From positions 33,244 to 97,243 of the forward strand of contig DATGGQ010000029.1 of the NCBI GenBank assembly GCA_035308445.1: 64,000 bases of DNA, written 5' to 3'. The position numbers and the translations under genes were made by a program. This stretch comes from Candidatus Limnocylindrales bacterium. Lineage in GTDB: Bacteria > Chloroflexota > Limnocylindria > Limnocylindrales > CSP1-4. Within the stretch, counting starts at the first letter, position 1. Every line of letters begins with the position of its first letter. Below the pieces are notes generated by a model, which had not been told where the DNA came from, searched no databases, and worked only from the letters and a program-made list of their open reading frames with translations. Below are positions 49,695 through 63,668 of the stretch, in pieces.

Positions 49695-50986
49695 GCGCCG
49701 GCGTCCCCGATCCGAACCGCCTGAAGCCGCGCCGTCGGGCCACGCCCTCGGTCGACGTCGGCGGCGTGCTCGTGGGGAGCGCCCATCCCGTCGTCGTCCA
49801 GTCGATGACGAACACGGACACGGCCGACGCCGACGCCACCGCGATCCAGGTCGCGCGGCTCGCCCACGCCGGCAGCCAGCTCGTCCGCGTCACCGTGAAC
49901 AACGACGCCGCGGCGAAGGCGGTGCCGGAGATCCGCCGCAAGCTCGACGACCTCGGCGTCGGCGTGCCGGTCATCGGCGACTTCCACTACAACGGCCACC
50001 AGCTCCTGACCGAGCATCCGGCGATGGCCCGCGCCCTCGCGAAGTACCGGATCAACCCCGGCAACGTCGGCGCGAAGCGACACGACGAGCACTTCCAGAC
50101 GATCGTCCGGGTCGCGATCGACAACGACAAGCCCGTCCGGATCGGGGTCAACTGGGGCTCGCTCGACCAGGGGCTCCTGACCGATCTCATGAACGAGAAC
50201 GCAAAGCTGGCCGAGCCACGCGACGCGCGGGAGGTGCTGATCGAGGCGATCGTCCAGTCGGCGACCCGATCGGCGGAGCTGGCCGAGGCGACCGGCCTCC
50301 GGCACGATCGCATCATCCTCTCGGCCAAGGTGTCGGGGGTCCGCGATCTCGTCGACGTGTACCGGATCCTGGCTCGCCAGACCGACCTGCCGCTGCACCT
50401 CGGGCTGACCGAGGCGGGCATGGGCATGAAGGGCATCGTGGCGTCGACCGCCGGGCTGGCGATCCTGCTCGAGGAGGGGATCGGGGACACGATCCGCGTC
50501 TCGCTGACGCCGGCCCCGGGCGGCGACCGCGAGGAGGAGGTCCGCGTCGCCCAGCAGGTCCTGCAGTCGATGGGCCTCCGGGCGTTCCTGCCCCAGGTGT
50601 CGGCCTGCCCAGGCTGTGGCCGCACGACGTCGACGTTCTTCCAGGAGATGGCCGAGCAGGTCCAGGGCTATCTCCGCGACCGGATGCCGGAGTGGCGAGA
50701 GACCCATCCCGGCGTCGAGGAGCTCACCGTGGCCGTCATGGGCTGCGTCGTGAACGGGCCGGGCGAATCGAAGCATGCGGACATCGGGATCTCGCTGCCG
50801 GGCACGTTCGAGGAGCCGGTCGCCCCCGTGTTCATCGACGGCCGGCTGGACCGGACGCTCCGGGGCGACGGCCTCGTGGCCGAGTTCACCGACATCCTCG
50901 AGGACTACGTCGATCGGCGCTTCCCGGCGACGGGTGGCGGCGGGGCGGGGGTCAGCGACCGAGGAGGAGCAGCAGCCCGCAGATGA
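49691..50986 (+). CDS. ispG: 4-hydroxy-3-methylbut-2-enyl diphosphate synthase (flavodoxin type)
   Basis: [16 protein letters not shown] cluster ligands, [11 protein letters not shown]. Gly-rich C-terminal tail overlaps the convergent gene. Confidence 0.9.
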
Positions 50987-51609
50987 TCGCGAGGCCCGCG
51001 GCGGCGAACGCCGGGGTCATGATCCGGAAGGTCAGCCGGCGGAGGGTCACCCCGCCGTGGCGAGTCCGATACTCGGCGTCCAGCCGGAGGCTGTCGGCCA
51101 TGGACTGGACACGACGCGGGGCGCCGTGGACCTGGCGGAGCCGGGCAATCTCGGCGCGGTGCGCGGCCACCGTCCCGGCGACCGTCGTGTCGACGTACCG
51201 GGCGACGTAGTCGGGCCGGTCGATGACCTCGCCGCGCGGGTAGTTCGTCTGCAGCCAGGCCCAGTCGGCGAACGCCGTGTAGCAGGCCATCAGGGCGGGG
51301 AGGAGCCGCATCGGCACGACCGCGACGTAGGTCTCGCCGGTCTCGTCGGCCCAGGTCCACTCGAACCGCCGCCCTCCGTCCGGCAGGACGATCGTCCGCT
51401 CGCCGATCCGGTGGAATCCGAGCGCCTCCAGCTGGTCGAGGACGTGGGCGACGGGGGTGGCGGCGGGATCTCCAGTGGGCCGGCGTCGGCCAGCCGGCGC
51501 GTCTTCGATCCGGCATAGATCGCCCACGCCCGCATGGCCGGCGGCACGAACCGGAGCAGCAGCAGGATGGCCAGGGCGAGCCCTGCGAGCTCGAGCGTCC
51601 GTTCGGGCA
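50952..51609 (-). pseudogene. Probable frameshifted gene for a ~219-aa bitopic membrane protein (N-terminal and C-terminal TM helices), in the slot where rimP normally sits
   Basis: Frame B (from ATG 51609) gives MPERTLELAGLALAILLLLRFVPPAMRAWAIYAG... and then degenerates into Pro/Ser junk. Frame A (ending 50952) is protein-like from ...VAHVLDQLEALGFHRIGER... to a C-terminal TM ([22 protein letters not shown]). The two frames switch near a CCGCCGCCACCCCCG run at about 51470-51500. On its strand a TACGAT box lies 8 nt before ATG 51609. Confidence 0.35.
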
Positions 51610-51635
51610 TCGGGCGGCATCGTACGCGGTCGGGT

Positions 51636-51641
51636 GTATAC
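51636..51641 (+). promoter_or_regulatory. Putative -10 box TATACT of the nusA-infB operon leader
   Basis: GGGTGTATACTCCCGGGG; motif family member. Confidence 0.35.
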
Positions 51642-51668
51642 TCCCGGGGAGCTCGAATGGCCGCCTCG

Positions 51669-51698
51669 ATACGTGGGTGACCCCCACGTATTTTTTTC
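51669..51698 (+). terminator. Intrinsic terminator (9-bp stem ATACGTGGG/CCCACGTAT plus T7 run) inside the nusA 5' leader; likely NusA-responsive attenuator
   Basis: Hairpin followed by TTTTTTT read directly. This is the only long T-run in a strongly GC-rich window; it lies 50 nt upstream of the nusA ATG and about 30 nt downstream of the putative -10. Confidence 0.6.
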
Positions 51699-51749
51699 GG
51701 CGGCGATGGATCGGACACACGACGCTGACGACTGGAGGGCGGCACGACC

Positions 51750-52967
51750 ATGAGTCGGGATTTCGTCGGCGCCCTCCTCCAGCTGAATGCCGAGAAGCAG
51801 GTTCCCCGTGAGCAGCTGATCCGGACGGTGGAGGAGGCCATCGCGATGGCCTATCGCCGGATCGCGAACGAAGAGGACATCCACGTCCAGATCAACGGCG
51901 ACACCGGCGGCATCCGTGTGTACCGCGCCCGCTGGGCGGTCGACGAGGTCGAGGACCCGCTGACCCAGTTCAGCCTCGATGAGGCCCGGGCCATCAAACC
52001 CGACGTCCAGCGCGGCGAGCTCGTCGAGACGGAGCAGCTCGACGGCGAGGCGTTCGGCCGGATCGGCGCCCAGACCGCGAAGCAGGTCGTGCTGCAGCGC
52101 CTCCGCGAGGCGGAGCGCGACGTCGTCTTCGACCAGTTCGCGAGCCGCGAGGGCGAGCTCGTGAACGGCACGGTCAACCGCGTCGAGCCGCGGGCGATCA
52201 TCCTCGACATGGGCAAGGGCGTCGAGGCGATCCTCGCCACGACCGAGCAGAGCCCCCTCGAGCACTACCGCATCGGCCAGAACGTCAAGGCCTACGTCCT
52301 CGAGGTCCGCCGCACGCCGCGCGGGCCGGCGCTCTTCGTGAGCCGGACGCACAAGGGCTTCCTGAAGCGCCTGTTCGAGCTCGAGGTTCCCGAGATCCAC
52401 AACGGCACCGTCGAAATCCGGGCGATCGCCCGCGAGGCGGGCAGCCGCTCGAAGGTCGCGGTCGGCTCGCGTCAGGAGGGGCTCGACCCGGTCGGCGCGA
52501 CGGTCGGCCAGCGCGGCGCGCGAGTCCAGGCCGTCGTCGCCGAGCTCGGCGGGGAGAAGATCGACGTCATCCCGTGGAGCGAGGACCCGTCCCAGTTTGT
52601 CGCCAACGCGCTCTCGCCGGCGCAGGTCCTGTCCGTGGACATCGACCAGGAGCACCGGATCGCGAACGTGACGGTGCCCGAGCGGATGCTGTCGCTCGCG
52701 ATCGGCCGAGAGGGCCAGAACGCGCGGCTCGCCGCCCGCCTCACGGGCTGGCGCATCGACATCCGCAGCGATGTGTCGGTTGCCGAGGCGAAGGCCGCCG
52801 CCGCTGCGGCCGCAGCGGCCCCGAGCGTCGAGCCCGCGATCGAGCCGCCGTCGAACAGCAAGGCCCCGGCCGAGGCGGCGGAGGCTTCTGACAGTGCGGC
52901 CGCGCCGGCGCCCAGGAAGCGGGCCAGCCGTGCCAAGGCCAAGGCATCGGAAGAGGTGTCGTCGTAG
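51750..52967 (+). CDS. nusA: Transcription termination/antitermination factor NusA
   Basis: N-terminal domain, S1, two KH domains (AIGREGQNARLAARLTGWRIDI); Ala/Lys-rich C-terminal tail; SD GGAGGG. Confidence 0.9.
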   Translation: MSRDFVGALLQLNAEKQVPREQLIRTVEEAIAMAYRRIANEEDIHVQINGDTGGIRVYRARWAVDEVEDPLTQFSLDEARAIKPDVQRGELVETEQLDGEAFGRIGAQTAKQVVLQRLREAERDVVFDQFASREGELVNGTVNRVEPRAIILDMGKGVEAILATTEQSPLEHYRIGQNVKAYVLEVRRTPRGPALFVSRTHKGFLKRLFELEVPEIHNGTVEIRAIAREAGSRSKVAVGSRQEGLDPVGATVGQRGARVQAVVAELGGEKIDVIPWSEDPSQFVANALSPAQVLSVDIDQEHRIANVTVPERMLSLAIGREGQNARLAARLTGWRIDIRSDVSVAEAKAAAAAAAAAPSVEPAIEPPSNSKAPAEAAEASDSAAAPAPRKRASRAKAKASEEVSS

Positions 52968-52981
52968 GCGCCGGAGCCGCG

Positions 52982-53266
52982 GTGGCGGCCCGTCCCCGTC
53001 GCCCCACGACCCGATCGTGCGTGGCCTGCCGAACGTCGCGCGACAAGCGCGAGCTCCTGCGGGTCGTCCGAACGCCGGCCGGCGAGGTGCGTCTCGATCC
53101 CACGGGGCGGCTGAACGGCCGCGGCGCATACGTGGATTCCAACCCGGCCTGCATCGACGGCGCCGTCGATCGCGGCCTGCTGGCGCGCGCCCTCGAGACC
53201 GACCTGCCGGCCGGCCTCCGAGCGGACCTGCTCGCCGCCACCGGAGGCAGCCATGGCCAGGAGTAG
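52982..53266 (+). CDS. ylxR: YlxR-family (DUF448) RNA-binding protein
   Basis: RSCVACRTSRDKRELLRVV...GRGAYV signature; conserved position between nusA and infB. Confidence 0.8.
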   Translation: MAARPRRPTTRSCVACRTSRDKRELLRVVRTPAGEVRLDPTGRLNGRGAYVDSNPACIDGAVDRGLLARALETDLPAGLRADLLAATGGSHGQE

Positions 53267-55154
53267 GAGCGGCACCCGCGGCCGACGCGGACCCCGCAAG
53301 CCCCAGCGCCGCGACGGCGCCTTCCAGCAGGCGGCCGTGCAGGTCGCCGATCCGCGCGAGCGCGGCGCGGTCGAGCTGCCGCCGACCATCACGGTCAAGG
53401 AGCTGGCCGAGCTGCTGAGCGTCAACCCGGCGGACGTGATCCGGGAGCTGATCAAGAGCGGCATCTTCGCAACGATCAACCAGCTCATCGATCGAGACAC
53501 CGCCTCGCTCGTGGCCGGCGAGCTCGGCTATGAGGTCGCCGAGCCCCAGGCCGTCTCGTCGACGAACGGCGAGGATCGATCCGAGGCGCCATCGGAGGCG
53601 GTCAAGGAGGCGCTCTTCACCGAGGAGGACGGCGCCGACCTCGTGACGCGTGCCCCGATCGTGACCGTCATGGGCCACGTCGATCACGGCAAAACGAGCC
53701 TCCTCGACGCGATCCGCAAGACCGAGGTCGCGGCGGGGGAGCGGGGTGGCATCACCCAGCACATCGGCGCGAGCGAGGTCCATCGCGGCGACCGCCGGGT
53801 CGTGTTCCTCGACACCCCCGGCCACGAGGCCTTCACGGCGATGCGGGCCCGCGGTGCGAAGGTCACCGACGTGGCCGTCGTCGTCGTCGCCGCCGACGAC
53901 GGGGTAATGCCCCAGACCCTCGAAGCGATCAGCCACGCGAAGGCCGCCCAGGTCCCGATCATCGTGGCCCTCAACAAGATCGACAAGCCGGATGCCAACC
54001 CGGACCGGGTGAAGACCGACCTCACCGAGGCCGGGGTCGTCATCGAGGAGTACGGCGGTGACACGCCACTCGTGCCCGTCTCGGCACGGACGGGCGTCGG
54101 GCTCGACGACCTCGTCGACATGATCCTGCTCGTCTCGGACCTGCAGGAGCTGAAGGCCAACCCGAAGCGGGCGGCGATCGGCACGATCGTCGAGGCTCGG
54201 ATGGACAAGGGCCGTGGTCCCGTGGCGACGGCGCTGGTCCAGACCGGGACGCTCCGCGTCGGCGACGTCATCGTCGTGGGCGAGACGTTCGGCCGCGTCC
54301 GGGCGCTCGAGAACGAGCACGGCAAGCGCGTCTCGAAGGCCGGCCCCGCGACGCCGGTCGTCGTGCTCGGCCTGTCCGAGGTCCCGGAGGCTGGCGACAT
54401 CCTGCGCGTCGTCGCCGACGAGAAGGCCGCCCGGACGATGGTCGAGGCCCGCCGGGCCGAGCTTGCCTCGAAGGGCGGCGAGGGGAGCGGCCGGGCGACG
54501 CTCGAGGACCTGTACCGCCAGATCCAGGCGGGCCAGGCGAAGGAGCTTCGGATCATCCTCAAGGCCGACGTCTCGGGCTCGCTCGGCGCGATCCGCCATG
54601 CGCTCGAGCAGCTCCCGACCGACGAGGTGAAGCTGAACATCCTCCACGAGGGTGCCGGCGAGATCAGCGACAACGACATCCTGCTGGCCTCGGCGTCGAA
54701 CGCCATCGTCGTCGGCTTCAACACGTCCATCAGCGACACGGCCCGCCGGGCCGCCGCTCAGGAGAAGGTCGACGTTCGCCTGTACGACATCATCTACCAG
54801 CTCACCGACGACATCACCAAGGCCCTCGGCGGCATGCTCGAGCCCGAGCAGGTCGAGGTGGTCGAGGGTCGGGCCGAGGTGCGCCAGCTCATCAAGGTCG
54901 GCAAGAGCACCGTCATCGCGGGCTCGTACGTGACGGACGGCCGCATCGTCCGCGGCGGGGCACGCATCTGGCGCGGCGGCAAGGTCATCGCGACGGACCG
55001 GATCGAGTCGCTGCGCCGCTTCCGCGACGACGTCCGCGAGGTCCAGACCGGCTTCGAGTGCGGCATCGGCCTGGCCGGCTTCAGCGACCTCGAAGAAGGC
55101 GACATCATCGAGTGCTTCACGTCGCAGACCGTCAGCCGGTCCCTGACGGCCTGA
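53253..55154 (+). CDS. infB: Translation initiation factor IF-2 (short N-terminus)
   Basis: GHVDHGKTSLLD, DTPGHEAF, NKIDK G-domain motifs; C-terminal beta-barrel domains. Confidence 0.95.
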   Translation: MARSRSGTRGRRGPRKPQRRDGAFQQAAVQVADPRERGAVELPPTITVKELAELLSVNPADVIRELIKSGIFATINQLIDRDTASLVAGELGYEVAEPQAVSSTNGEDRSEAPSEAVKEALFTEEDGADLVTRAPIVTVMGHVDHGKTSLLDAIRKTEVAAGERGGITQHIGASEVHRGDRRVVFLDTPGHEAFTAMRARGAKVTDVAVVVVAADDGVMPQTLEAISHAKAAQVPIIVALNKIDKPDANPDRVKTDLTEAGVVIEEYGGDTPLVPVSARTGVGLDDLVDMILLVSDLQELKANPKRAAIGTIVEARMDKGRGPVATALVQTGTLRVGDVIVVGETFGRVRALENEHGKRVSKAGPATPVVVLGLSEVPEAGDILRVVADEKAARTMVEARRAELASKGGEGSGRATLEDLYRQIQAGQAKELRIILKADVSGSLGAIRHALEQLPTDEVKLNILHEGAGEISDNDILLASASNAIVVGFNTSISDTARRAAAQEKVDVRLYDIIYQLTDDITKALGGMLEPEQVEVVEGRAEVRQLIKVGKSTVIAGSYVTDGRIVRGGARIWRGGKVIATDRIESLRRFRDDVREVQTGFECGIGLAGFSDLEEGDIIECFTSQTVSRSLTA

Positions 55155-55193
55155 GGTGACGCGCCGCGACCTGAGCGCTCCCGGGGTGTCCCG

Positions 55194-55613
55194 ATGACCC
55201 AGCGCACGGACCGGATCGACGAGCAGCTCAGGCAGGAGATCGGGGCGATCCTGGCCCGCGAGATCAGCGACCCGCGGATCGGCTTCGCGACGGTGACCGA
55301 CGTCGAGACCGTACCGGACCTTAGCCACGCGAAGGTCTGGATCAGCGTCATCGGCCAGCCCGCCGAGCGCCGGGAGACGGCTCGCGCCCTGACCCATGCG
55401 CTGCCGTACATCCGGCGGCAGCTCGGCTCGCGCCTGCACCTCCGCCGGATCCCGGAGCTGCACCTTGAGCTGGACGAGACCGCGGAACGGGGGACACGGG
55501 TCCTCAAGCTGATCGAGGAGCTCGAGGCCGGCCGGACACCGGACGAGCAGGTGACGGCGGGCGAGACCCTGCCGACGCCGGTGAAGCGGATCCAGCACGA
55601 GGGCGACGCGTGA
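55194..55613 (+). CDS. rbfA: Ribosome-binding factor A
   Basis: RIDEQLRQEIGAILAREISDPRIGFATVTDVE... Confidence 0.9.
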   Translation: MTQRTDRIDEQLRQEIGAILAREISDPRIGFATVTDVETVPDLSHAKVWISVIGQPAERRETARALTHALPYIRRQLGSRLHLRRIPELHLELDETAERGTRVLKLIEELEAGRTPDEQVTAGETLPTPVKRIQHEGDA

Positions 55614-56626
55614 CGATCGACCTCGGGCCGTGGCTCGGCGAGGTCCCGGAGCGGGCCGCCGAGCGGATCGCGGCCGGCCGGCGCGTCCTCATCGCCAGCC
55701 ACGAGAACCCCGACGCGGACACCCTCGGGGCGGCGCTCGGGGTCGCGGCAATCGTCGAGCAGCACGGCGGACGCACGCAGCTGCTGTGCGCCGACACCAT
55801 CCCGCCGCTGTACGACTTCCTGCGCGGGGTCGAGCGGTTCCGGACCGACCCGGATCCGGAATTCGGGCCCGACCTGCTCGTCGTCTGCGACTGCGGCGCC
55901 CTGGACCGCCTCGGCAGCCTCGGCGAACGCCAGGCGACGCTGTTCGCGAGCCTGCCGCGGGTCATCGTCGACCACCACGCCTCGAACACGGAGGGCGGGG
56001 CGGACGACTGGGTCGATCCGCAGGCCGCGGCGACGTGCGAGATGGTGGCGCTGCTCGCGGCTAAGCTGGCCGTGCCGCTCGACTCGGGCGGCGGCGCCCT
56101 CGCCACGGCGCTCATGGCCGGCGTGGTGATGGACACCGCGACTTTCGCCCACCCAAATGCGACGCCGCGGACGCTGGCGGTGTCGGCCGCGCTCGTCGAC
56201 GCGGGCGCACCGCTGGCGGACATCTCCCGCCGGCTCTACCGCTCGAAGCCGGACGCCCAGCTGAAGCTCCTCGGCCGGGCGCTGCATCGGCTCGAGACGG
56301 CGGCCGACGGGCGGATCGTCTGGTCGACGCTGCGGACCGCCGATCACGCCGAGACGGGGGCGCTGCCGTCCCACTCGGAGGGCATCATCGACCTCCTCTC
56401 GCAGTCGGAGACCGCCGAGGTCGCCATCCTCTTCAAGGAGGTCGACGCGAGCTCGACGCGGGTGTCGGTCCGGACGCGAGACGGCGGCCTCGACGCCACC
56501 CGCCTGACCGGTGCCTTCGGCGGGGGCGGTCACGCTCGGGCCGCCGGCGCGACGGTGCGGGCCGCGCTGCCCGACGCCGAGCGCCAGGTCCTCGCCGAGG
56601 CCGAGCGCCTCCTCGCCGCGGGCTGA
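55610..56626 (+). CDS. nrnA: DHH-family bifunctional oligoribonuclease / pAp phosphatase NrnA
   Basis: HENPDADTLGAA (DHH motif I), DHH at VIVDHHASN, C-terminal DHHA1 GGGH. Confidence 0.85.
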   Translation: MTIDLGPWLGEVPERAAERIAAGRRVLIASHENPDADTLGAALGVAAIVEQHGGRTQLLCADTIPPLYDFLRGVERFRTDPDPEFGPDLLVVCDCGALDRLGSLGERQATLFASLPRVIVDHHASNTEGGADDWVDPQAAATCEMVALLAAKLAVPLDSGGGALATALMAGVVMDTATFAHPNATPRTLAVSAALVDAGAPLADISRRLYRSKPDAQLKLLGRALHRLETAADGRIVWSTLRTADHAETGALPSHSEGIIDLLSQSETAEVAILFKEVDASSTRVSVRTRDGGLDATRLTGAFGGGGHARAAGATVRAALPDAERQVLAEAERLLAAG

Positions 56627-56629
56627 CCC

Positions 56630-57562
56630 GTGCCCCAGCCTCGGACGAGCCGGATGAGCGGCGTCCTCGTTGTCGCGAAGCCCGCCGGTCCCACCTCGCA
56701 CGACGTCGTGGCGCTCGTCCGGCGACTGGCGGCGTCGAAGCGGATCGGGCACGGCGGCACGCTCGATCCGTTCGCCTCGGGCGTCCTGCCGCTGTTCCTC
56801 GGCGGGGCGACGCGGCTCGTGGAATACCACCTCGGCGACCCGAAGACCTACCGCGCGACGATCTGCTTCGGCGCCTCGTCGACGACCGACGACCTCGACG
56901 GCGAGCTGACGCCGGTCACTGGACCCGTGCTCGGTCGGGGTCAACTGGAGAACGCCCTGTCGGGCTTCCTGGGAGTGCAGCTCCAGCGGCCGCCGGCGTA
57001 TTCGGCCGTCCAGGTCGGCGGGCGGCGGGCCTATGCGATGGCCCGAGCGGGGGAGACGCCGACCCTGAGCCCTCGCGAGGTCACGATCCACGCGCTCCGG
57101 CTCGTCGACTGGGACGACGCCGACCAGAGCCGGCCCGTGGCGATCGTCGAGGTCGAATGCTCCGCGGGCACCTACGTCCGCGCTCTCGCCCGGGACCTCG
57201 GGGCGCGCCTCGGGTCGGGTGCGTACCTGTGCGGCCTCGTGCGCACGGCCTCGGGGCCGTTCAGCCTCGATGACGCGCGCCCGCTCGACGCGATCCGTGA
57301 GGCGGCGGCATCGGGCGGCGCCGATGCCATCCAGGCCATGCTGCTGCCGTCGGACACCGGGCTCGACGCGATCCCCGCGCTCCGGCTGACGGACGCCGAG
57401 GTGGCCGACGCGACGATGGGCCGCTACTTCCGACCGGAGGCCGGGGTCGGCGGGGTTCCGGCCGCCGGCCCGGTGCGGCTCCAGGATCCTCGCGGCCGGA
57501 TCGTGGGCATGGGCCGGCTGGACGGCCGCCGGATCGTGCCCGACAAGATGCTCGTGTCGTGA
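56630..57562 (+). CDS. truB: tRNA pseudouridine(55) synthase
   Basis: [17 protein letters not shown]...GHGGTLDP... (catalytic Asp), PUA-like C-terminus. Confidence 0.9.
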
Positions 57563-58344
57563 AGGTCGTCCACGGCGTCGAGGCGCTCGAGCCCGCCGAC
57601 GGGCGCCTCTTCGTCGTCGTCGGGGTGTTCGACGGCCTCCATGTCGGGCACGCCTATCTCCTCGACGAGCTTCGGAAGGCCGCGATTCAGGCCGGGGCCC
57701 GACCGGCTGTCATCACCTTCGACCACCATCCCGACGAGGTCATCAGGGGGGCCGCGCCGCCACTCCTCTGCGATCCCGAGGAGCGCCTCGAGCGCCTGCA
57801 GATGGCGGGGGTCGAGGTCACCGTCGTCCAGACCTTCGACGTCGCCCTGCGCATGACGCCGTTCGAGGCATTCGTGCGGCGGATCGCCGACCGGGTCGAT
57901 CTCGCCGGCGTCCTGATGACGCCGGAGTCGGCGTTCGGCCACGACCGCGGCGGCACGCCGGAGACCGTGGCGGCCCTGGGTCGAACGCTCGGCTACGACG
58001 TGGTCGTCGTGCCCCAGTTCGAGCTCGACGGTCGGCCGGTTCGGAGCTCGGACATCCGGGCGGCGATCGCGACCGGGGACCTTCGGGAAGCCGAGCACCT
58101 GCTGGGCCGCCCGATGTCGGTCGTCGGCGAGGTCTCGCGGGCCCTTCGGGATGCCACGGTGCTGGGCTTCGGGCTGCCGGTCGTCCTGCCACCCGCCGGC
58201 CGCTACGAAGCTGTCGTGACGTCGCCCGGCGGCGCGATTCGAGAGCGCACCATCGAGGTCGACGGCACGATCCTCCAGATCACGCCGGCCATTCCGGCTC
58301 GGGTCGGGGACCGCCTCGTCGTGTCGCCGCGGGGGCCCGCCTGA
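57559..58344 (+). CDS. ribF: FAD synthetase RibF-like (FMN adenylyltransferase domain intact; C-terminal riboflavin-kinase domain short and degenerate)
   Basis: [17 protein letters not shown] nucleotidyltransferase motif. Only 261 aa versus the usual ~310. The kinase region lacks the GxxRGR..GFPTAN signature (reads [15 protein letters not shown]). Confidence 0.75.
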
Positions 58345-58383: not shown

Positions 58384-58442
58384 CCGCCGGTCTAAGTTTC
58401 AAGATTCAGGAACCAACGAACACGTTCGTGTCGGAGGACCGA

Positions 58443-58712
58443 GTGCCGCTCGCGCCTGCAGGCAAGCAGGAGATCATCACCGAGTACGCCATCATCGATG
58501 GCGACACGGGCTCGCCGGAAGTCCAGATCGCCCTCCTCACGGAGCGGATCCGAGGGCTGACCGAGCATCTCCGCAGCTTTCCCAAGGACAACCATTCGCG
58601 TCGCGGCCTCCTCAAGCTCGTCGGTCAGCGCCGGCGCCTGCTCGCGTATCTCGTGAAGAAGGACGCCACGCGCTACCGGGCCGTCATCGGACGGCTCGGA
58701 CTTCGCCGCTAG
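58443..58712 (+). CDS. rpsO: 30S ribosomal protein S15
   Basis: KQEIITEYA...[17 protein letters not shown]....KD.HSRRGLL..V..RRRLL.YL. GTG at 58443 with GGAGG 5 nt upstream is preferred over the track start 58428. Confidence 0.85.
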
Positions 58713-58715
58713 CCC

Positions 58716-58808
58716 GCACCAGCGAGCCCGGGTGCGCCCGGGCGGTGCCGCAGGCCAGCTCGTAGATCGGCCCGCACACAGGTCGGCGCCTCCTCCGCGA
58801 CCAGGAGG
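58716..58808 (+). promoter_or_regulatory. rpsO-pnp intercistronic leader: stem-loop GCACC..CCCGGG-tgcg-CCCGGG..GGTGC (58716-58748), then anti-SD CCTCCTCC (58789-58796) able to pair with the pnp SD AGGAGG (58803-58808)
   Basis: Inverted repeats read directly. The architecture matches the RNase III-processed, PNPase-autoregulated pnp leader known in other bacteria. Confidence 0.45.
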
Positions 58809-58819
58809 AAACCAACTTC

Positions 58820-61411
58820 GTGTCCACCATCGTGGAGACCCAGCTTCGTGGCCGCACGGTCACGATCGAGACCGGCAAGCTCGCGATGCTCGCCGGCGGC
58901 TCCGTCACCGTCCGTCTCGGTGACACCGTCGTGCTCGGCACGGCGAATCGCTCCGACCCGAGGCCCGGGCTCGACTTCTTCCCGCTCACGGTCGACTTCG
59001 AGGAGCGGATGTACGCCGCGGGCAAGATCCCGGGCGGCTTCATCAAGCGCGAGGGCCGTAGCAGCGAGGGTGCCATCCTCGCCGCGCGCCTGACCGACCG
59101 GCCGATCCGTCCGCTCTTCCCCGACGGCTACAAGGACGATGTCCAGGTCGTGATCACGGTCCTCTCGACCGATCAGCAGAACGATCCCGACGTCCTCGGC
59201 ACGGTGGCCGCCTCGGCCGCGCTGACCCTCAGCGAGATCCCGTTCCTCGGCCCGGTCGGCGCGGTTCGCGTCGGCCGCGTGGACGGCGAGCTCATCGCCA
59301 ACCCGACATTCGACGAGCTCAAGGAGTCGGACCTCGACCTGATCGTCTCGGGCACCCGGGACGCGATCATGATGGTCGAGGCGGGCGCGAAGCTCCTGCC
59401 CGAGGACGTCATGGCCGAGGCCATCCTCTTCGGCCACCGGGCCCTCCAGCCCCTGATCGACATCCAGGAGGACCTGCAGAAGCAGGTCGGCAAGGCCAAG
59501 AAGACCGGCTACCTCGAGCCGGGGACCGACTCGGTGCTGGCGTTCGTCGACGCGTTCGAGTCCGGCAAGGACCTCGTCGTCGTCGACGTCGAGACCACGG
59601 GTGTCGACACCTCGCTGGCCGATCTCGTCGAGGTTGCCGGCGTCCGGATCCGGAAGGGCAAGATCGCCGACCGCTGGTCGAGCCTCGTCAAGCCCGCCCG
59701 CCCGATCGTCGGCCACCAGCTCCACGGGCTGACCGATGCCGACGTCGCGAAGGCGCCGTCCGCGGCCGTGGCCGCCGGGCAGCTGCTCGAATGGGCCGGT
59801 GACGCGACGCTCGTCGGCCACAACGTCGGGTTCGACCTCGGGTTCATCGCCGAGGCCATCGGCGGCCGCGAGTTCGCCGCGGGCACCTACCTCGACACGC
59901 TCGTGCTGGCTCGCGACGGGTATCCGACGGGCCCCGACGCCTACAAGCTGACCGACCTCTCGCGATTCTTCGGGATCGAGCTCCAGGCCAACCATCGGGC
60001 CGCGCCCGACGCCGAGGCCACGGCCGAGCTCGTGCTGAAGATCGGCGCGGACCTGCCGGGCCGGATCAAGGCCCTGAAGGCCGGCATCGCCGACTCGATC
60101 CGCCAGCAGAAGGCGGACCCGGCGAAGGCCAAGGCGACCTTCGAGGCGGCGCGCCGGACGGCGCGCGTGAGCAAGAGCCTCTCCGGGCTCGTCCACAAGA
60201 AGGTCGTCCGCGCGCTCGTCCTCGGTGAGGGCGTCAGGATGGACGGCCGCGCGCTCGACGAGATCCGGCCGATCTCCGTCGAGGTCGGGCTGCTGCCGCG
60301 AGCCCACGGCTCCGGCCTCTTCACCCGCGGCCAGACCCAGGCGCTGACGATCGCCACGCTCGGGCCGTCATCGGACGTCCAGCGGATCGACACGATCAGC
60401 CCGGAGACCGAGAAGCGCTACATCCATCACTACAATATGCCGCCCTACAGCACCGGCGAGAACAAGCCGATGCGAGGTCCCGGGCGGCGCGAGATCGGTC
60501 ACGGCAACCTGGCCGAGCGGGCCCTCGTCCCGGTGCTTCCGAGCGCCGAGGAGTTCCCGTACGTGATCCGGCTCGTGTCGGAGTGCGTGACGTCGAACGG
60601 CTCGACCTCGATGGCCTCGACCTGCGGCTCGACGCTCGCCCTGATGGACGCCGGCGTGCCGATCAAGGCACCGGTCGCCGGCGCGGCGATGGGGCTCGTC
60701 ATGGAGGCCGATGGCACGTTCGCGGTCCTGACCGACATCCTCGGCAAGGAGGATGCGTTCGGGGACATGGACTTCAAGGTCACCGGGACCCGCGACGGGA
60801 TCACCGCGCTCCAGATGGACATCAAGGTCCGGGGCATCAGCGAGGCCGTCATCCGGCAGGGGCTCTCGAAGGCCCTGACCGCCCGTCTGGCGATCCTCGA
60901 CAAGATGGTGGCGGTCCTGCCCGAGGCGCGCGAGGAGATGTCCTCCTTCGCGCCGCGGATCATCACGATCAAGATCAACCCCGAGAAGATCCGGGACATC
61001 ATCGGCAAGGGTGGCTCGATGATCCGGAAGATCCAGGAGGAGACGGGCACCGAGATCAACGTCGAGGACGACGGCACGGTCGAGATCGCCGCGGTGAGCG
61101 GCGAGAACTCGCGCAAGGCGATCAACTGGATCGAGAGCCTGACGCGCGAGGTCGAGATCGGCGCCCTGTACCTGGGCAAGGTCACCCGGATCATGTCCTT
61201 CGGGGCGTTCGTCGAGATCCTGCCGGGCAAGGAAGGCCTCGTCCGGATCGGCGAGCTCGCCGACTACCACGTTCCGACCGTCGAGGACGTCGTGTCTGTC
61301 GGCGACGAGGTGATGGTCGTGGTCATCGAGGTCGACCGGCAGGGCCGGATCAACCTCAGCCGGAAGGCCGCGATGCAGCGCCACCTGGCGAAGGAGCCGG
61401 TCGCCGGCTGA
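58820..61411 (+). CDS. pnp: Polyribonucleotide nucleotidyltransferase (PNPase) with an inserted DEDDh (DnaQ/Orn/RNase T-like) 3'-5' exonuclease domain (about aa 250-420) inside the alpha-helical linker domain
   Basis: PH1 (FFPLTVDFEERMYAAGKIPGGF), PH2 (LPRAHGSGLFTRGQTQAL...), KH and S1 are all present. An extra ~170 aa carries Exo I VVVDVETTG, Exo II LVGHNVGFDLGFI and Exo III HRAAPDAEATAEL, and aligns along its length with DnaQ epsilon. Confidence 0.9.
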   Translation: MSTIVETQLRGRTVTIETGKLAMLAGGSVTVRLGDTVVLGTANRSDPRPGLDFFPLTVDFEERMYAAGKIPGGFIKREGRSSEGAILAARLTDRPIRPLFPDGYKDDVQVVITVLSTDQQNDPDVLGTVAASAALTLSEIPFLGPVGAVRVGRVDGELIANPTFDELKESDLDLIVSGTRDAIMMVEAGAKLLPEDVMAEAILFGHRALQPLIDIQEDLQKQVGKAKKTGYLEPGTDSVLAFVDAFESGKDLVVVDVETTGVDTSLADLVEVAGVRIRKGKIADRWSSLVKPARPIVGHQLHGLTDADVAKAPSAAVAAGQLLEWAGDATLVGHNVGFDLGFIAEAIGGREFAAGTYLDTLVLARDGYPTGPDAYKLTDLSRFFGIELQANHRAAPDAEATAELVLKIGADLPGRIKALKAGIADSIRQQKADPAKAKATFEAARRTARVSKSLSGLVHKKVVRALVLGEGVRMDGRALDEIRPISVEVGLLPRAHGSGLFTRGQTQALTIATLGPSSDVQRIDTISPETEKRYIHHYNMPPYSTGENKPMRGPGRREIGHGNLAERALVPVLPSAEEFPYVIRLVSECVTSNGSTSMASTCGSTLALMDAGVPIKAPVAGAAMGLVMEADGTFAVLTDILGKEDAFGDMDFKVTGTRDGITALQMDIKVRGISEAVIRQGLSKALTARLAILDKMVAVLPEAREEMSSFAPRIITIKINPEKIRDIIGKGGSMIRKIQEETGTEINVEDDGTVEIAAVSGENSRKAINWIESLTREVEIGALYLGKVTRIMSFGAFVEILPGKEGLVRIGELADYHVPTVEDVVSVGDEVMVVVIEVDRQGRINLSRKAAMQRHLAKEPVAG

Positions 61412-61764: not shown

Positions 61765-62418
61765 TCAGGCCGCCACGGCGGCCTCCGGCGCGACGTGGGC
61801 GGTGATCGCCAGCATGTTGCCGTCGGGGTCGTCGAAGAACGCGAGCCACTCCTCGACGCCGGTGGCGTCGTGCTTGAAGATCATGTGCGGCGCCTGCCTG
61901 AAGTCGATGCCCCGCCCGGTGAGCTCGGCATGGGCCGCATGGATATCCGGGACGAGGAAGTACAGGACCGAGCTTGGCCGCCACTTCTCGTCGCCGACGG
62001 CGTGGATGTAGAGGCGGACGCCGCCACAGTCGAAGAACACGAGGTCGCCGAACCGGAAGACCTCGGGCAGCTTCAGGACGTCGCGGTACCACGCCTCGGT
62101 CGCGGCAGCGTCGCGGGCGTAGAGGGAGACCTGGCCCAGCGGGCCGAGTTGGACCGGTTCGGACATGGTTCGGCCCCTCCTCGAGGCCATGGCGCTAGTC
62201 GACGGGAAGCCGGGCCAGGCGCGCAGGGCGGTCGTGCCCTCCACGCCGAGCTTGCCGGCGATGTTCCGCAGGTGGTAGCGAACGCCGTACTCGCTGATGC
62301 CCCGCATCGCCGCGATCGTTCGGCGAGTGAGGCCGTGGCGGTACATGTCGAGCACGGACCACTCGGTCGGCGTCAGGACGTCCGGGTGCGGCGGCCGGCC
62401 TCGGGATCGACGTGCCAT
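61765..62418 (-). CDS. LuxR/GerE-type HTH domain (N-terminal) fused to a VOC/glyoxalase-bleomycin-resistance domain; possible internal start for a stand-alone VOC protein at 62166
   Basis: LTPTEWSVLDMYRHGLTRRTIAAMRGISEYGVRYHLRNIAGKLGV matches the GerE HTH. The C-terminal half (VSLYARDAAATEAWYRDVLKL...VRLYIHA...GNMLAI) is a VOC fold. An in-frame ATG at 62166 is preceded by GAGGAGGGG. Confidence 0.7.
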   Translation of the reverse strand: MARRSRGRPPHPDVLTPTEWSVLDMYRHGLTRRTIAAMRGISEYGVRYHLRNIAGKLGVEGTTALRAWPGFPSTSAMASRRGRTMSEPVQLGPLGQVSLYARDAAATEAWYRDVLKLPEVFRFGDLVFFDCGGVRLYIHAVGDEKWRPSSVLYFLVPDIHAAHAELTGRGIDFRQAPHMIFKHDATGVEEWLAFFDDPDGNMLAITAHVAPEAAVAA

Positions 62419-62490
62419 GGCGGCAGCCTAACGGGGGCGGGGGCGATTTTCCCTCCCCCCGTCGGGGACGGTCCGGGAGTGGGCCGCTGG

Positions 62491-62496
62491 TATACT
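62491..62496 (+). promoter_or_regulatory. Putative -10 box TATACT upstream of asd
   Basis: CTGGTATACTCGCCGCC in the divergent intergenic region. Confidence 0.3.
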
Positions 62497-62543
62497 CGCC
62501 GCCGTGCCCGGATGACCTCGAAGCCCTGCGGAGCCATGCCCGG

Positions 62544-63668
62544 ATGAACCAGCGAAGATCCCTCCGCATCGCCGTCGTCGGTGCCACCGGCCTGGTGGGC
62601 CGGACGATGATCCAGGTGCTGTCCGAGCACGGGCACGACCCGCAGGCCCTCCTGCTGCTGACGTCCGCTCGATCGGCCGGCCAGGTCGTGGCGCTCCCGG
62701 GCGAGGCGACCGCCACCTGCCGCGAGGCGACCGCCGAGGCCTTCGAGGACGTCGACGTCGCGCTGTTCAGCGCCGGGGCGGGAGTCTCCCGCGAGCTCGC
62801 CCCGCGGGCGGTGGAGCGAGGCGCGACCGTCATCGACAACTCGAGCGCGTGGCGGATGGATCCCGCGGTGCCGCTCGTCGTCCAGCAGGTCAACCCCGAC
62901 GACCTCGAGGCCCACGAAGGGATCATCGCGAACCCGAACTGCTCGACGATGCAGCTCGCGCCGGTCCTGATGGCCCTCCGGGACGCCGTCGGGCTCGAGC
63001 GCGTGATCGTCGACACGTACCAGTCCGTCTCGGGCACCGGCGCGGAGGCGGTGGCCGAGCTCGAGGCTCAGGTCGCGGCTCACGTCGCGGGGGCGGCGAT
63101 GACGGCCTCGATCTACCCCCATCCGATCGCCTTCAACGCCCTCCCGGAGATCGACGTCTTCCGGGAAGACGGCTACTCCCAGGAGGAGTGGAAGGTCGTC
63201 CAGGAGAGCCGCAAGATCCTCCACCTGCCCGACCTGGCCGTGTCCTGCACGGCCGTCCGCGTCCCGGTGTTCGTCGGCCACTCCGAGGCCGTCCACGTGG
63301 AGACGAGGCGACCGATCAGCCCGGCCCAGGCGCGGGAGCTGTTGACGGCCGTGCCGGGCGTGGTCATCCGCGACGATCCGAGCGCCCACGAGTACCCGCT
63401 CGCAGCCGACGCTGCCGGAACCGACGACATCGTCGTCGGCCGGATCCGGCGCGATGCCTCCCTGCCCGAGGGACTCGGGCTCGCCATGTGGATCGTCGCC
63501 GATAACGTCCGCGTCGGCGCGGCCACGAACGCCGTCGGCCTCGCGGAGACCCTCGTGACGCGCGGCTGGGTCGTGCCTCGCAGCCGGCGCGAGACGAAGG
63601 TCGAGACGGCCGCCGCCCGGCGCGCGCGGAAGCCCTCCACGCCCGTCGCCGAGAGCGTGGCTCGTTGA
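62544..63668 (+). CDS. asd: Aspartate-semialdehyde dehydrogenase
   Basis: IAVVGATGLVGR, catalytic NPNCST, basic C-terminal tail. The track start 62412 is upstream read-through. Confidence 0.9.
   Translation: MNQRRSLRIAVVGATGLVGRTMIQVLSEHGHDPQALLLLTSARSAGQVVALPGEATATCREATAEAFEDVDVALFSAGAGVSRELAPRAVERGATVIDNSSAWRMDPAVPLVVQQVNPDDLEAHEGIIANPNCSTMQLAPVLMALRDAVGLERVIVDTYQSVSGTGAEAVAELEAQVAAHVAGAAMTASIYPHPIAFNALPEIDVFREDGYSQEEWKVVQESRKILHLPDLAVSCTAVRVPVFVGHSEAVHVETRRPISPAQARELLTAVPGVVIRDDPSAHEYPLAADAAGTDDIVVGRIRRDASLPEGLGLAMWIVADNVRVGAATNAVGLAETLVTRGWVVPRSRRETKVETAAARRARKPSTPVAESVAR

What the first reader, a model, noticed from the sequence alone, without database searches (positions are those of the whole stretch)
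59570..60085. PNPase carrying an embedded DEDDh (DnaQ/Orn-like) 3'-5' exonuclease domain
The pnp ORF is continuous for 863 aa, about 150 aa longer than canonical PNPases. The extra segment is not a linker. It has all three DEDDh motifs (VVVDVETTG; LVGHNVGFDLGFI; HRAAPDAEATAEL) and aligns along its whole length with the DNA pol III epsilon / oligoribonuclease fold. It sits where the PNPase all-alpha domain normally lies, between the two RNase PH cores, with PH1, PH2, KH and S1 intact. This would combine a phosphorolytic and a hydrolytic 3'-5' exo(ribo)nuclease in one polypeptide, possibly a built-in nanoRNase finishing PNPase products, or a DNA/RNA proofreading activity. I am not aware of a described PNPase with this architecture.
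Basis: partly seen in the sequence, partly recalled or inferred. Interest (0 to 1): 0.9.

Follow-up and report, generated by a model that had tools for sequence, protein, structure and literature searches.

The report
PNPase with built-in DEDDh exonuclease domain
The housekeeping RNA-degrading enzyme PNPase of one class of soil and freshwater bacteria (Chloroflexota, Limnocylindria) carries a second, apparently active nuclease domain of the DNA-polymerase-proofreading type. This joins two different 3'-end-chewing chemistries in one protein, an architecture I found described in no paper or solved structure.

Summary
ORF 58820..61411 (+) is an uninterrupted 863-aa pnp gene in its usual place after rpsO. 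It has both RNase PH cores, KH and S1, plus a ~160-aa RNase_T/DEDDh domain (Pfam 80 bits, aa 253-404).

It is not an assembly artefact:
- All 120 best database homologues have it.
- All 80 species-level genomes returned have it, all Limnocylindria/Chloroflexota apart from a few probably mis-binned contigs.
- It is always in frame, 158-162 aa long, and co-diverges with the PNPase core.

The five DEDDh catalytic residues and the PNPase active-site residues are invariant, while the insert as a whole drifts to ~50 % identity.

- The helical domain is retained. The DEDDh domain is nested at its N-terminal edge, on the ring face opposite KH/S1.
- The insert is of the monomeric epsilon/PolC/DinG type, not Orn-like. 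An intact NrnA-type nanoRNase gene sits in the same conserved gene cluster, which weakens the "built-in nanoRNase" idea.

The most likely function is a second, hydrolytic 3'-5' exonuclease site working alongside phosphorolysis. The substrate (RNA or DNA) is not decided. No paper or PDB entry found describes this architecture, so it is a new variant of a known kind.

The parts
58820..61411 (+). pnp CDS, 863 aa plus stop. PNPase with a nested DEDDh domain. GTG start, with AGGAGG upstream.
   Evidence: TIGR03591 scores 945 bits (cut-off 525).
58820..59509 (+). First RNase PH-like core (PH1), aa 1-230.
   Evidence: RNase_PH, RNase_PH_C 144-208; alignment to 5yjj, residues 4-227.
59528..59563 (+). 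Helix aa 237-248 just before the insert. Probably the first helix of the PNPase helical domain, or a linker helix.
   Evidence: AF2 secondary structure, pLDDT about 85-92. The assignment to the helical domain is an inference.
59576..60031 (+). DEDDh (RNase_T/DnaQ-like) 3'-5' exonuclease domain, aa 253-404.
   Evidence: PF00929, 80 bits. PolC, DinG, DnaQ and epsilon chains. Foldseek probability 1.0 to DinG/PolC/epsilon exonuclease domains.
59576..59602 (+). Exo I motif VVVDVETTG. D256 and E258 are invariant.
   Evidence: 121 of 121 sequences; 48 of 48.
59810..59848 (+). Exo II motif LVGHNVGFDLGFI. D339 is invariant.
59993..60031 (+). Exo III-epsilon motif HRAAPDAEATAEL. H392 is invariant. D397 is invariant except for one D-to-H homologue.
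60032..60229 (+). Retained PNPase helical domain, aa 405-470. The helix 394-429 runs on without a break from the last DEDDh helix, followed by helices 434-448 and 452-470.
   Evidence: PF03726, 20.9 bits (below the 24.6 cut-off), aa 445-477 matching profile 48-80 of 81; pLDDT 86-96. PNPase profile position 234 resumes at aa 401.
60260..60919 (+). Second RNase PH-like core (PH2) with the phosphorolytic active site. R556, R557, H561, S595, T596, S597, D645, D651 and K653 are all invariant.
60962..61135 (+). KH domain, aa 715-772.
61151..61366 (+). S1 domain, aa 778-849.
58428..58712 (+). rpsO (ribosomal protein S15), the canonical upstream neighbour of pnp.
   Evidence: The rpsO-pnp pairing is kept in 74 related loci.
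55610..56626 (+). NrnA-type DHH/DHHA1 phosphoesterase gene in the same conserved cluster. This is context that bears on the nanoRNase hypothesis.
   Evidence: DHH and GGGH motifs. TM1595, Rv2837c and NrnA at E 1e-34 to 1e-39; present in 47 loci.

Best explanation
This is the single, housekeeping PNPase of Limnocylindria (Chloroflexota). [quoted passage not shown]

Shown:
- The domain is in frame and of fixed length.
- It is inherited together with the core.
- It is under purifying selection, and all five metal-binding/general-base residues are kept.
- The phosphorolytic site is also intact.

Inferred:
- The protein is a bifunctional 3'-5' exonuclease with three phosphorolytic (Pi-dependent, NDP-producing) sites inside the ring.
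- It also has three hydrolytic (Mg2+-dependent, NMP-producing) sites. These are held rigidly on the ring face opposite KH/S1, beside the side pore that the helical domain forms to the PH2 active site.

Most likely (inferred) the hydrolytic site acts on RNA 3' ends that PNPase handles poorly:
- short 3' overhangs next to structure,
- short end-products,
- PNPase-made tails,
- or any 3' end when phosphate is limiting.

This would make it a covalent counterpart of the PNPase + RNase D degradosome, or of the exosome ring + Rrp6/Rrp44.
For: Architecture:
- establish the domain order.
- The protein matches the PNPase equivalog and sits at the rpsO-pnp locus.

Not an artefact:
- All 120 best clusters from JGI, ENA and NCBI carry PF00929.
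- All 80 GTDB species loci show the fusion in frame. Some contigs are up to 3.1 Mb.

Single family:
- An exhaustive HMMER search of 1.84 billion representatives gives only one full-length fusion cluster (P0121, 68 % identical) plus fragments.

Catalytic conservation:
- D256, E258, D339 and H392 are invariant in all 121 close homologues; D397 is D in 120 of the 121. All five are invariant in the 48 full-length coding sequences.
- The mean pairwise identity of the insert is only 0.69, and falls to 0.50.
- P0121 and a divergent 'HRGLADAE' sub-lineage also keep these residues.

Selection (NG86 dN/dS):
- 0.40 for the insert
- 0.69 for the linker
- 0.53 for the helical domain
- 0.19 for the PH cores

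Co-inheritance:
- Insert and core distances correlate at r = 0.72, Mantel p = 0.001.
- Insert length is 158-162 aa.

Fold and rigidity:
- The insert+helices model has pLDDT 89 and pTM 0.86.
- A continuous helix 394-429 joins the DEDDh domain to the helical domain.
- The best fold matches are the DinG, PolC and epsilon exonuclease domains.

Position:
- In E. coli PNPase the helical domain lies on the torus face opposite S1/KH and lines a pore to the active site (PMC2723993).

Precedents:
- PNPase and the DEDD enzyme RNase D share the Caulobacter degradosome, and the authors note the Rrp6/exosome parallel (PMC4245959).
- PNPase does not readily degrade 2-5 nt RNAs (PMC10570053).
Against: - No activity data exist.
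- The closest characterised relatives of the insert are DNA-directed: PolC and epsilon proofreading, ExoX, Cas2-DEDDh, and DinG. B. subtilis DinG prefers ssDNA and cuts ssRNA only with Mn2+ (PMC12525004).
- An NrnA-type nanoRNase is encoded in the same cluster, so a finishing enzyme for short oligonucleotides already exists.
- The full-length model is poor outside PH1/DEDDh/helices (mean pLDDT 66), and no coordinates or trimer model were available. The distance and orientation of the DEDDh site relative to the channel are therefore not measured.
- dN/dS of the insert is about twice that of the cores.
- I could not inventory the other exoribonucleases in these genomes.
Confidence: 0.55

Rival explanations
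1. The DEDDh domain is a DNA, or RNA:DNA-hybrid, 3'-5' exonuclease. It would extend the known moonlighting role of PNPase in DNA repair and recombination, by trimming ssDNA 3' ends or removing R-loop RNA, rather than serving bulk RNA decay.
For: - The nearest sequence and fold relatives are DNA enzymes: PolC-exo, DinG-exo, epsilon, ExoX and Cas2-DEDDh.
- The next-best relatives in the 1.84-billion-protein search are DEDDh domains fused to GIY-YIG/UVR, DinG helicase, FAN1/VRR-NUC, UvrD and PolC, at 33-48 % identity.
- PNPase itself degrades and extends ssDNA and takes part in repair in B. subtilis and E. coli (PMC2709576, PMC3241651, PMC5379764).
Against: - The host protein is the canonical RNA-decay PNPase at the rpsO-pnp locus, with intact KH/S1 RNA-binding domains.
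- The sugar specificity of DEDDh enzymes cannot be read from sequence, and several of them (RNase T, DinG) cut both DNA and RNA.
- No DNA-repair genes are linked to the locus. The conserved cluster is nusA-infB-nrnA-truB-ribF-rpsO-pnp-asd.
Confidence: 0.22
2. It is a built-in nanoRNase in the first reader's sense: the DEDDh domain works like oligoribonuclease and degrades the 2-5 nt limit products of PNPase to mononucleotides.
For: - PNPase leaves short oligonucleotides that need a separate enzyme (PMC10570053).
- The domain sits next to the pore that leads to the PH2 active site.
Against: - The insert does not match Orn. There is no Orn or RNase T chain in the PDB sequence search at E<=1e-3, and no Orn in the top 50 fold matches. 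Its NCBIfam hits are DinG, PolC and epsilon types.
- Orn and RNase T are obligate homodimers whose partner subunit completes the substrate site (my own knowledge). That is hard to reconcile with a three-fold-symmetric PNPase ring.
- A complete NrnA/Rv2837c/TM1595-type gene with DHH and GGGH motifs lies in the same cluster and is conserved with the fusion in 47 loci.
Confidence: 0.12
3. It is a catalytically silent structural or regulatory insert. The DEDDh fold would be kept only as a nucleic-acid- or nucleotide-binding or scaffolding module on the helical domain.
For: - The insert evolves faster than the PH, KH and S1 domains (dN/dS 0.40 against 0.16-0.20).
- One homologue (P0109) has D397H.
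Against: - All five catalytic residues are invariant in the 48 full-length coding sequences from the species-level genome set.
- Four of the five are invariant in all 121 close homologues, and D397 in 120 of them.
- All of this holds although the domain diverges to 50 % identity.
- Besides the five catalytic residues, further motif positions are invariant: T259 T260; G298 Q300 H302 G303; G333 H334 G337 F338 F342; Y357 D359 T360; R393 A398 T401 A402.
- Apparently degenerate database entries turned out to be frameshifted gene calls.
Confidence: 0.06
4. It is an assembly or binning artefact: a chimeric join of a pnp gene and a dnaQ-like gene.
For: None found. Only the general caution that this window comes from a metagenome-type assembly.
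Against: - The same in-frame architecture is found in 120 protein clusters from JGI, ENA and NCBI and in 80 independent genome assemblies, with contigs up to 3.1 Mb.
- There is no GC discontinuity.
- Insert and core co-diverge.
Confidence: 0.01

Closest known systems
Canonical bacterial PNPase (TIGR03591 / NF008805; e.g. E. coli 3GCM/3CDI, S. epidermidis 5YJJ, C. crescentus 4AM3)
   Same: - The domain order is PH1 - helical - PH2 - KH - S1.
- It scores above the equivalog cut-offs.
- It is about 55-60 % identical to PDB PNPases in the cores.
- The phosphorolytic active-site residues are invariant.
- It shows rpsO-pnp synteny.
   Different: - It carries about 156-160 extra residues forming a DEDDh exonuclease domain nested at the start of the helical domain.
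- None of the solved PNPases matched by the sequence and fold searches has such a domain.
Monomeric DnaQ-like DEDDh exonuclease domains embedded in larger proteins: PolC exonuclease domain (9QPC, 2P1J), S. aureus and B. subtilis DinG N-terminal exonuclease (8ZEF), Cas2-DEDDh/Cas-DnaQ (8FY9, 8H2F), Pol III epsilon (1J53, 2GUI)
   Same: - It has the same fold and the Exo I/II/III-epsilon motifs.
- It is 24-33 % identical, with Foldseek probability 1.0.
- Like PolC-exo, it is a domain nested inside another domain of a host enzyme.
   Different: - The host is an RNA phosphorylase, not a DNA polymerase, helicase or Cas protein.
- It scores far below the cut-offs of every one of those NCBIfam families.
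- Its substrate is unknown.
Caulobacter crescentus RNA degradosome (RNase E scaffold + PNPase + RNase D), and eukaryotic exosome Exo9 + Rrp6/Rrp44
   Same: A PNPase-like PH ring works together with a hydrolytic exoribonuclease. RNase D and Rrp6 are DEDD-superfamily enzymes (PMC4245959). In the exosome the hydrolytic Rrp44 sits on the ring face opposite the S1/KH cap (my own knowledge). That is the same face as the helical domain here.
   Different: - Those partnerships are non-covalent and use DEDDy (RNase D, Rrp6) or RNB (Rrp44) enzymes.
- Here a DEDDh domain is covalently nested in the ring subunit, and the ring keeps its own phosphorolytic activity.
- The resemblance is functional analogy only. 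Membership is not claimed.
Oligoribonuclease (Orn) and RNase T
   Same: They belong to the same Pfam family (PF00929) and are DEDDh enzymes. RNase T appears from rank 14 in the fold search.
   Different: - There is no significant sequence match to Orn or RNase T chains.
- Those enzymes are homodimers (my own knowledge).
- A separate NrnA-type enzyme is encoded nearby.

Membership tests
Polynucleotide phosphorylase (PNPase; TIGR03591/NF008805) | The whole protein scores above the curated equivalog cut-off. | tested here: met
   945.4 bits against 525.05 (TIGR03591), and 944.5 against 471 (NF008805). The match comes in two stretches around the insert.
Polynucleotide phosphorylase (PNPase; TIGR03591/NF008805) | Two RNase PH-like cores followed by KH and S1 domains. 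| tested here: met
   RNase_PH x2, RNase_PH_C x2, KH_1 and S1, all above their gathering scores.
Polynucleotide phosphorylase (PNPase; TIGR03591/NF008805) | An all-alpha helical domain between PH1 and PH2 (PF03726). | tested here: inconclusive
   PF03726 scores 20.9 bits, below the 24.6 cut-off, and only for profile positions 48-80. Some homologues do carry a PF03726 hit (P0083, P0108, P0116). AF2 gives confident helices at 237-248 and 394-470. The length bookkeeping fits a retained domain of about 70 aa.
Polynucleotide phosphorylase (PNPase; TIGR03591/NF008805) | Phosphorolytic active-site residues in PH2: the RR..H motif, the S-T-S phosphate site, and the two metal-binding Asp plus Lys. | tested here: met
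   R556, R557, H561, S595, T596, S597, D645, D651 and K653 are invariant in 48 of 48 sequences. The motifs align with 5yjj.
Polynucleotide phosphorylase (PNPase; TIGR03591/NF008805) | Homotrimeric ring with a central channel. | not testable with these tools
   Only a monomer model was available, without coordinates.
DEDDh / DnaQ-like 3'-5' exonuclease superfamily (Pfam RNase_T, PF00929) | The HMM score is above the gathering score over the full domain length. | tested here: met
   80.2 bits against 24, covering profile positions 1-163 of 164.
DEDDh / DnaQ-like 3'-5' exonuclease superfamily (Pfam RNase_T, PF00929) | The four acidic residues (Exo I D and E, Exo II D, Exo III D) and the Exo III-epsilon His are present and conserved in homologues. 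| tested here: met
   D256, E258, D339, H392 and D397 are invariant, with one D397H among 121 sequences.
DEDDh / DnaQ-like 3'-5' exonuclease superfamily (Pfam RNase_T, PF00929) | An RNase H-like alpha/beta fold superposable on solved DEDDh domains. | tested here: met
   pLDDT 89; probability 1.0, TM-score (normalised to the target) 0.73-0.79 to the DnaQ, epsilon and PolC-exo domains.
DEDDh / DnaQ-like 3'-5' exonuclease superfamily (Pfam RNase_T, PF00929) | Metal-dependent 3'-5' exonuclease activity. | not testable with these tools
   This needs biochemistry.
DNA polymerase III epsilon subunit (dnaQ; TIGR01406/TIGR00573) | The score is above the family cut-off. | tested here: not met
   58.7-60.6 bits against 222.7 (TIGR01406), and 59.1 against 71.5 (TIGR00573).
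Oligoribonuclease (Orn) | Sequence similarity to Orn. | tested here: not met
   no Orn chain at E<=1e-3 in the PDB sequence search; the 25 best of 28 NCBIfam families contain no Orn model; no Orn in the top 50 fold matches.
Oligoribonuclease (Orn) | A homodimer in which the partner subunit completes the dinucleotide/5'-phosphate binding site. | not testable with these tools
   It seems unlikely in a three-fold ring. This is an inference from my own knowledge of the Orn and RNase T dimers.
NrnA-type DHH/DHHA1 nanoRNase (neighbour gene 55610..56626) | DHH plus DHHA1 domains, the DHH and GGGH motifs, and full-length similarity to characterised NrnA/Rv2837c/TM1595. | tested here: met
   both Pfam domains; DHH and GGGGH present; E 8.8e-39 to TM1595, 7e-34 to Rv2837c/NrnA.
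NrnA-type DHH/DHHA1 nanoRNase (neighbour gene 55610..56626) | The NCBIfam NrnA equivalog cut-off. | tested here: not met
   80.7 bits against 350. It is the best hit, but well below the cut-off.

The most novel reading that the evidence does not exclude
The Limnocylindria PNPase is a single-polypeptide bacterial analogue of the eukaryotic exosome. RNA captured by KH/S1 and threaded through the PH ring could be routed either to the internal phosphorolytic sites or onward to three hydrolytic DEDDh sites fixed on the exit face. That would give phosphate-independent decay, or decay past structure and to completion, without a degradosome scaffold. In these bacteria it might substitute for the usual hydrolytic exoribonucleases (RNase R/II, RNase T/D).
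Probability: 0.25. Interest if true: 0.8.

Novelty: new variant of a known kind. Interest (0 to 1): 0.62.

Why it matters
PNPase is one of the most conserved and most studied RNA-decay enzymes. None of the solved structures matched here has an additional catalytic domain, and I know of no described bacterial PNPase that has one.

A clade-wide PNPase carrying a second, hydrolytic nuclease site would matter in three ways:
1. It shows that the helical domain, whose role is still unclear, can serve as a platform for a new catalytic module next to the active-site pore.
2. It offers a natural, covalent model for how phosphorolytic PH rings cooperate with DEDD-type hydrolases. That question is otherwise studied in the exosome/Rrp6 and the Caulobacter degradosome.
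3. It concerns an abundant but uncultured soil and freshwater class, so it changes how RNA turnover (or PNPase-linked DNA repair) should be annotated there.

Databases currently name these proteins inconsistently, as either "polyribonucleotide nucleotidyltransferase" or "DNA polymerase III epsilon subunit family exonuclease".

Tried and rejected
- Misassembly or chimera: rejected.
- Degenerate or inactive insert: the apparently degenerate database representatives (P0154, P0158, P0169, P0230, P0145, P0146, P0159, P0160) switch between good alignment and Arg/Pro/Ser-rich sequence. They are frameshifted gene calls, not decayed domains.
- Independent PNPase-DEDDh fusions in other lineages: none among the best 150 of 23,564 hits. 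Candidates with a DEDDh at a similar position or of similar length (P0162, P0183, P0212 and others) are GIY-YIG, FAN1/VRR-NUC, DinG, PolC and UvrD proteins. More divergent independent fusions cannot be excluded.
- The afdb50 fold library, meant to look for the architecture in UniProt/AFDB, was not available.
- A structured or autoregulatory pnp leader: the rpsO-pnp intergenic fold is no better than shuffles (z = -0.16). There were no Rfam hits in the whole window.
- A second DEDDh paralogue in the window or in the flanks of the 80 loci: none.
- Literature: seven full-text searches for a described PNPase-DEDD fusion found nothing relevant.
- dN/dS values are NG86 estimates in very GC-rich, codon-biased genes. 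Only the relative ranking between domains is used.
- A genome-wide inventory of the other exoribonucleases in these MAGs could not be made, because the tools return only +/-10 kb around a match.


Full report
**1. What is in the sequence**

Between 58820 and 61411 on the + strand there is one uninterrupted reading frame of 863 codons. It lies in a conserved cluster: nusA (51750-52967), infB (53253-55154), a DHH/DHHA1 gene (55610-56626), truB (56630-57562), ribF (57559-58344) and rpsO (58428-58712), with asd further downstream (62412-63668).

Pfam finds the following, all above their gathering scores:
- RNase_PH twice and RNase_PH_C twice
- KH_1 (aa 715-772)
- S1 (aa 778-849)
- between the two PH cores, RNase_T/PF00929 at aa 253-404 (80.2 bits, E 3.3e-22, profile positions 1-163 of 164)

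The NCBIfam PNPase equivalogs score 945 bits against cut-offs of 525 and 471. The match is split in two, and the profile resumes at position 234 at aa 401.

Compared with S. epidermidis PNPase (5yjj), 226 residues face 70, so about 156 residues are extra. GC content is flat across the insert.

**2. Not an artefact, and how far it extends**

- All 120 best matches in the 5.8-billion-protein collection are 855-871 aa long apart from one partial entry (837 aa), are 80-100 % identical, and carry PF00929 together with the PNPase domains. They come from JGI, ENA and NCBI. NCBI names them for 'Candidatus Limnocylindrales' or Chloroflexota.
- A scan of one genome per GTDB species returned the permitted maximum of 80 loci. 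All 80 contain the DEDDh-plus-helical segment over its full length, and in all of them it lies inside a pnp gene.
- Some of these contigs are 1-3 Mb. In a handful of 'MFD' bin assemblies the gene is broken by scattered frameshifts.
- The labels are Limnocylindria, Limnocylindrales or Chloroflexota. This is a class of Chloroflexota.
- Three short contigs sit in bins called Polarisedimenticolia, Patescibacteria and Verrucomicrobiia. That is probably mis-binning.
- An exhaustive HMMER search with aa 200-500 against 1.84 billion representatives clustered at 50 % identity found only 44 proteins at E<=1e-30. One is a full-length fusion (P0121, 864 aa, 68 % identical overall, 53 % in the insert). The rest are fragments of the same family.
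- The next-best hits are DEDDh domains of other multidomain proteins, at 33-48 % identity: triple-DEDD-GIY-YIG-UVR, DinG, PolC, FAN1/VRR-NUC-DEDDh and UvrD-DEDDh.

So this is one family, confined as far as can be seen to one class, and there it is the canonical pnp. The rpsO-pnp pairing is kept in 74 loci and the wider cluster in about 40-50.

**3. Is the domain alive?**

- In 121 close homologues, D256, E258, D339 and H392 are invariant and D397 is D in 120. The exception is P0109, with D397H.
- In 48 full-length coding sequences from different species, all five are invariant. So are the PNPase active-site residues R556, R557, H561, S595, T596, S597, D645, D651 and K653.
- The insert as a whole has a mean pairwise identity of 0.69 and diverges to 0.50.
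- Apart from the catalytic residues, its invariant positions fall mostly in the segments typical of epsilon-like enzymes:
  - T259 T260
  - G298 Q300 H302 G303
  - G333 H334 G337 F338 F342
  - Y357 D359 T360
  - R393 A398 T401 A402
- P0121 and a divergent 'HRGLADAE' sub-lineage also keep the catalytic set.
- Database entries that looked degenerate are frameshifted gene calls.

Relative NG86 dN/dS values:

| Region | dN/dS |
|---|---|
| PH1 | 0.19 |
| PH2 | 0.20 |
| KH+S1 | 0.16 |
| Insert | 0.40 |
| Helical domain | 0.53 |
| Pre-insert linker | 0.69 |

The absolute values are unreliable in such GC-rich genes. The ranking says that the insert is more constrained than the genuine helical domain around it.

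Insert and core distances correlate (r = 0.72, Mantel p = 0.001), and the insert length is 158-162 aa. This points to one ancient acquisition followed by vertical inheritance.

**4. Where it sits**

The full-length AlphaFold model is mediocre overall (pLDDT 66, from a shallow alignment). It is confident for PH1, the DEDDh domain and the helices after it (pLDDT 85-96). A separate model of aa 236-470 has pLDDT 89 and pTM 0.86.

The order of elements is:
- helix 237-248
- three residues
- the DEDDh alpha/beta domain (252-393)
- a 36-residue helix (394-429) that carries on from the Exo III helix without a break
- helices 434-448 and 452-470
- PH2

PF03726, the PNPase helical-domain model, matches aa 445-477 weakly (20.9 bits, below its 24.6 cut-off). 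It is recorded for some homologues.

So the helical domain is retained. The DEDDh domain is nested at its N-terminal edge with short, apparently rigid connections.

In E. coli PNPase the helical domain lies on the face of the torus opposite S1/KH. It forms part of a pore that gives a second route to the active site (PMC2723993). By inference, three DEDDh domains decorate that face of the trimer. I could not obtain coordinates or a trimer model, so the orientation of the DEDDh active site is not known.

**5. What kind of DEDDh domain**

- By sequence, the solved relatives are PolC exonuclease (9qpc, 2p1j), S. aureus DinG exonuclease (8zef), Cas-associated DnaQ/Cas2-DEDDh (8h18, 8fy9), ExoX and epsilon. 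No Orn or RNase T chain passes E 1e-3.
- NCBIfam gives the same picture. Every one of those families is far below its cut-off, so the insert is a member of none of them.
- By fold, the order is DinG, PolC, Cas-DnaQ, epsilon and ExoX. RNase T and TREX follow. Orn is not in the top 50.
- These nearest relatives act as monomeric domains, whereas Orn and RNase T are homodimers (my own knowledge). A monomeric type is what one would expect on a three-fold ring.

**6. Function**

What is shown is a conserved, apparently catalytically competent hydrolytic 3'-5' exonuclease domain, fixed to a fully competent phosphorolytic PNPase.

My preferred reading (confidence about 0.55) is cooperation on RNA 3' ends. 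PNPase does not readily degrade 2-5 nt RNAs (PMC10570053). A distributive DEDDh site on the exit face could trim what the ring leaves, or act when phosphate is limiting.

Precedents are non-covalent. PNPase and the DEDD enzyme RNase D share the Caulobacter degradosome, and those authors draw the parallel with Rrp6 on the exosome (PMC4245959).

The specific nanoRNase version (about 0.12) is weakened for three reasons:
- The insert is not Orn-like.
- A full-length NrnA/Rv2837c/TM1595-type DHH-DHHA1 gene with DHH and GGGH motifs lies five genes upstream.
- That gene is conserved with the fusion in 47 loci.

The main rival (about 0.22) is a role on DNA or R-loops:
- The nearest relatives of the insert are DNA enzymes.
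- B. subtilis DinG's DEDD domain prefers ssDNA and the RNA strand of hybrids, and cuts ssRNA only with Mn2+ (PMC12525004).
- PNPase itself has documented roles in DNA repair (PMC2709576, PMC3241651, PMC5379764).

A silent structural insert (about 0.06) and an artefact (about 0.01) are unlikely.

**7. Novelty**

- None of the solved PNPase chains matched by the sequence and fold searches contains such a domain.
- Seven full-text searches found no description of a PNPase-DEDD fusion.
- The sequences are already in public databases, but under inconsistent names ('polyribonucleotide nucleotidyltransferase' or 'DNA polymerase III epsilon subunit family exonuclease').

I rate it a new variant of a known kind: two well-known catalytic modules in an undescribed, clade-wide combination, within a central RNA-decay enzyme.

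Interest is 0.62. The architecture is solid and would surprise a specialist. The mechanism and the substrate are still open, and the finding is confined to an uncultured lineage.

Noticed in passing
window 55610-56626 (+): A 338-aa DHH/DHHA1 protein lies between infB and truB. It has DHH and GGGGH motifs and is homologous over its full length to T. maritima TM1595, M. tuberculosis Rv2837c and NrnA (E 1e-34 to 1e-39). It scores far below the NCBIfam NrnA equivalog cut-off (80.7 bits against 350). It is conserved in 47 of the related loci.
   Followed up: yes
window 57559-58344 (+): The ribF ORF is only 261 aa and hits only the FAD synthetase domain (PF06574, aa 15-164). No riboflavin-kinase domain passes E<=0.001. 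It may be a monofunctional or divergent RibF.
   Followed up: no
window 61765-62418 (-): A 217-aa ORF combines a LuxR/GerE helix-turn-helix domain with a glyoxalase/VOC domain. It lies between pnp and asd. A counterpart was found in only 1 of the 80 related loci (L062), so this slot is variable.
   Followed up: partly
L015, L073, L074, L077 (ribF to rpsO); L005, L015, L022, L031 (pnp to asd): The conserved cluster nusA-infB-DHH-truB-ribF-rpsO-pnp-asd is interrupted in some species by about 5-6 kb between ribF and rpsO, or by several kb between pnp and asd. The content of these stretches was not examined.
   Followed up: no
L012, L024, L045; protein P0002: Short contigs carrying this Limnocylindria-type pnp are filed in MAGs labelled Polarisedimenticolia, Patescibacteria group, Verrucomicrobiia and Binatia. 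This is probably binning contamination rather than horizontal transfer, since they are 56-87 % identical to the window protein.
   Followed up: partly
proteins P0145, P0146, P0154, P0158, P0159, P0160, P0169, P0230: Several cluster representatives in the 50 %-identity library are frameshifted translations of this gene. They contain Arg/Pro/Ser-rich out-of-frame stretches. In a superficial survey they could be mistaken for degenerate variants.
   Followed up: yes
protein P0109 (close homologue, on a 44 kb contig): This is the only homologue seen with a substitution at a catalytic position (D397H in the Exo III motif, HRAGPHAEATA). It could be a sequencing error or a real inactive variant.
   Followed up: no
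window 50952-55598 (-), 54794-57091 (-), 58709-60307 (-): Very long antisense ORFs (1548, 765 and 532 aa) overlap nusA/infB, the DHH gene/truB, and pnp. Their translations are Arg/Pro/Gly-rich. They are most likely stop-poor reading frames of 70-75 % GC DNA, not genes.
   Followed up: no
window 58713-58819 (+): The rpsO-pnp intergenic region has an AGGAGG Shine-Dalgarno sequence 13 nt before the GTG start. Its predicted fold is no more stable than shuffled controls (z = -0.16). There is no Rfam match anywhere in the 64 kb window.
   Followed up: yes
L055, about 11705 (aa 804 equivalent): There is one in-frame stop inside the S1 domain of the pnp gene of a co-assembled MAG (binchicken_co31_244). 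It was not examined further.
   Followed up: no
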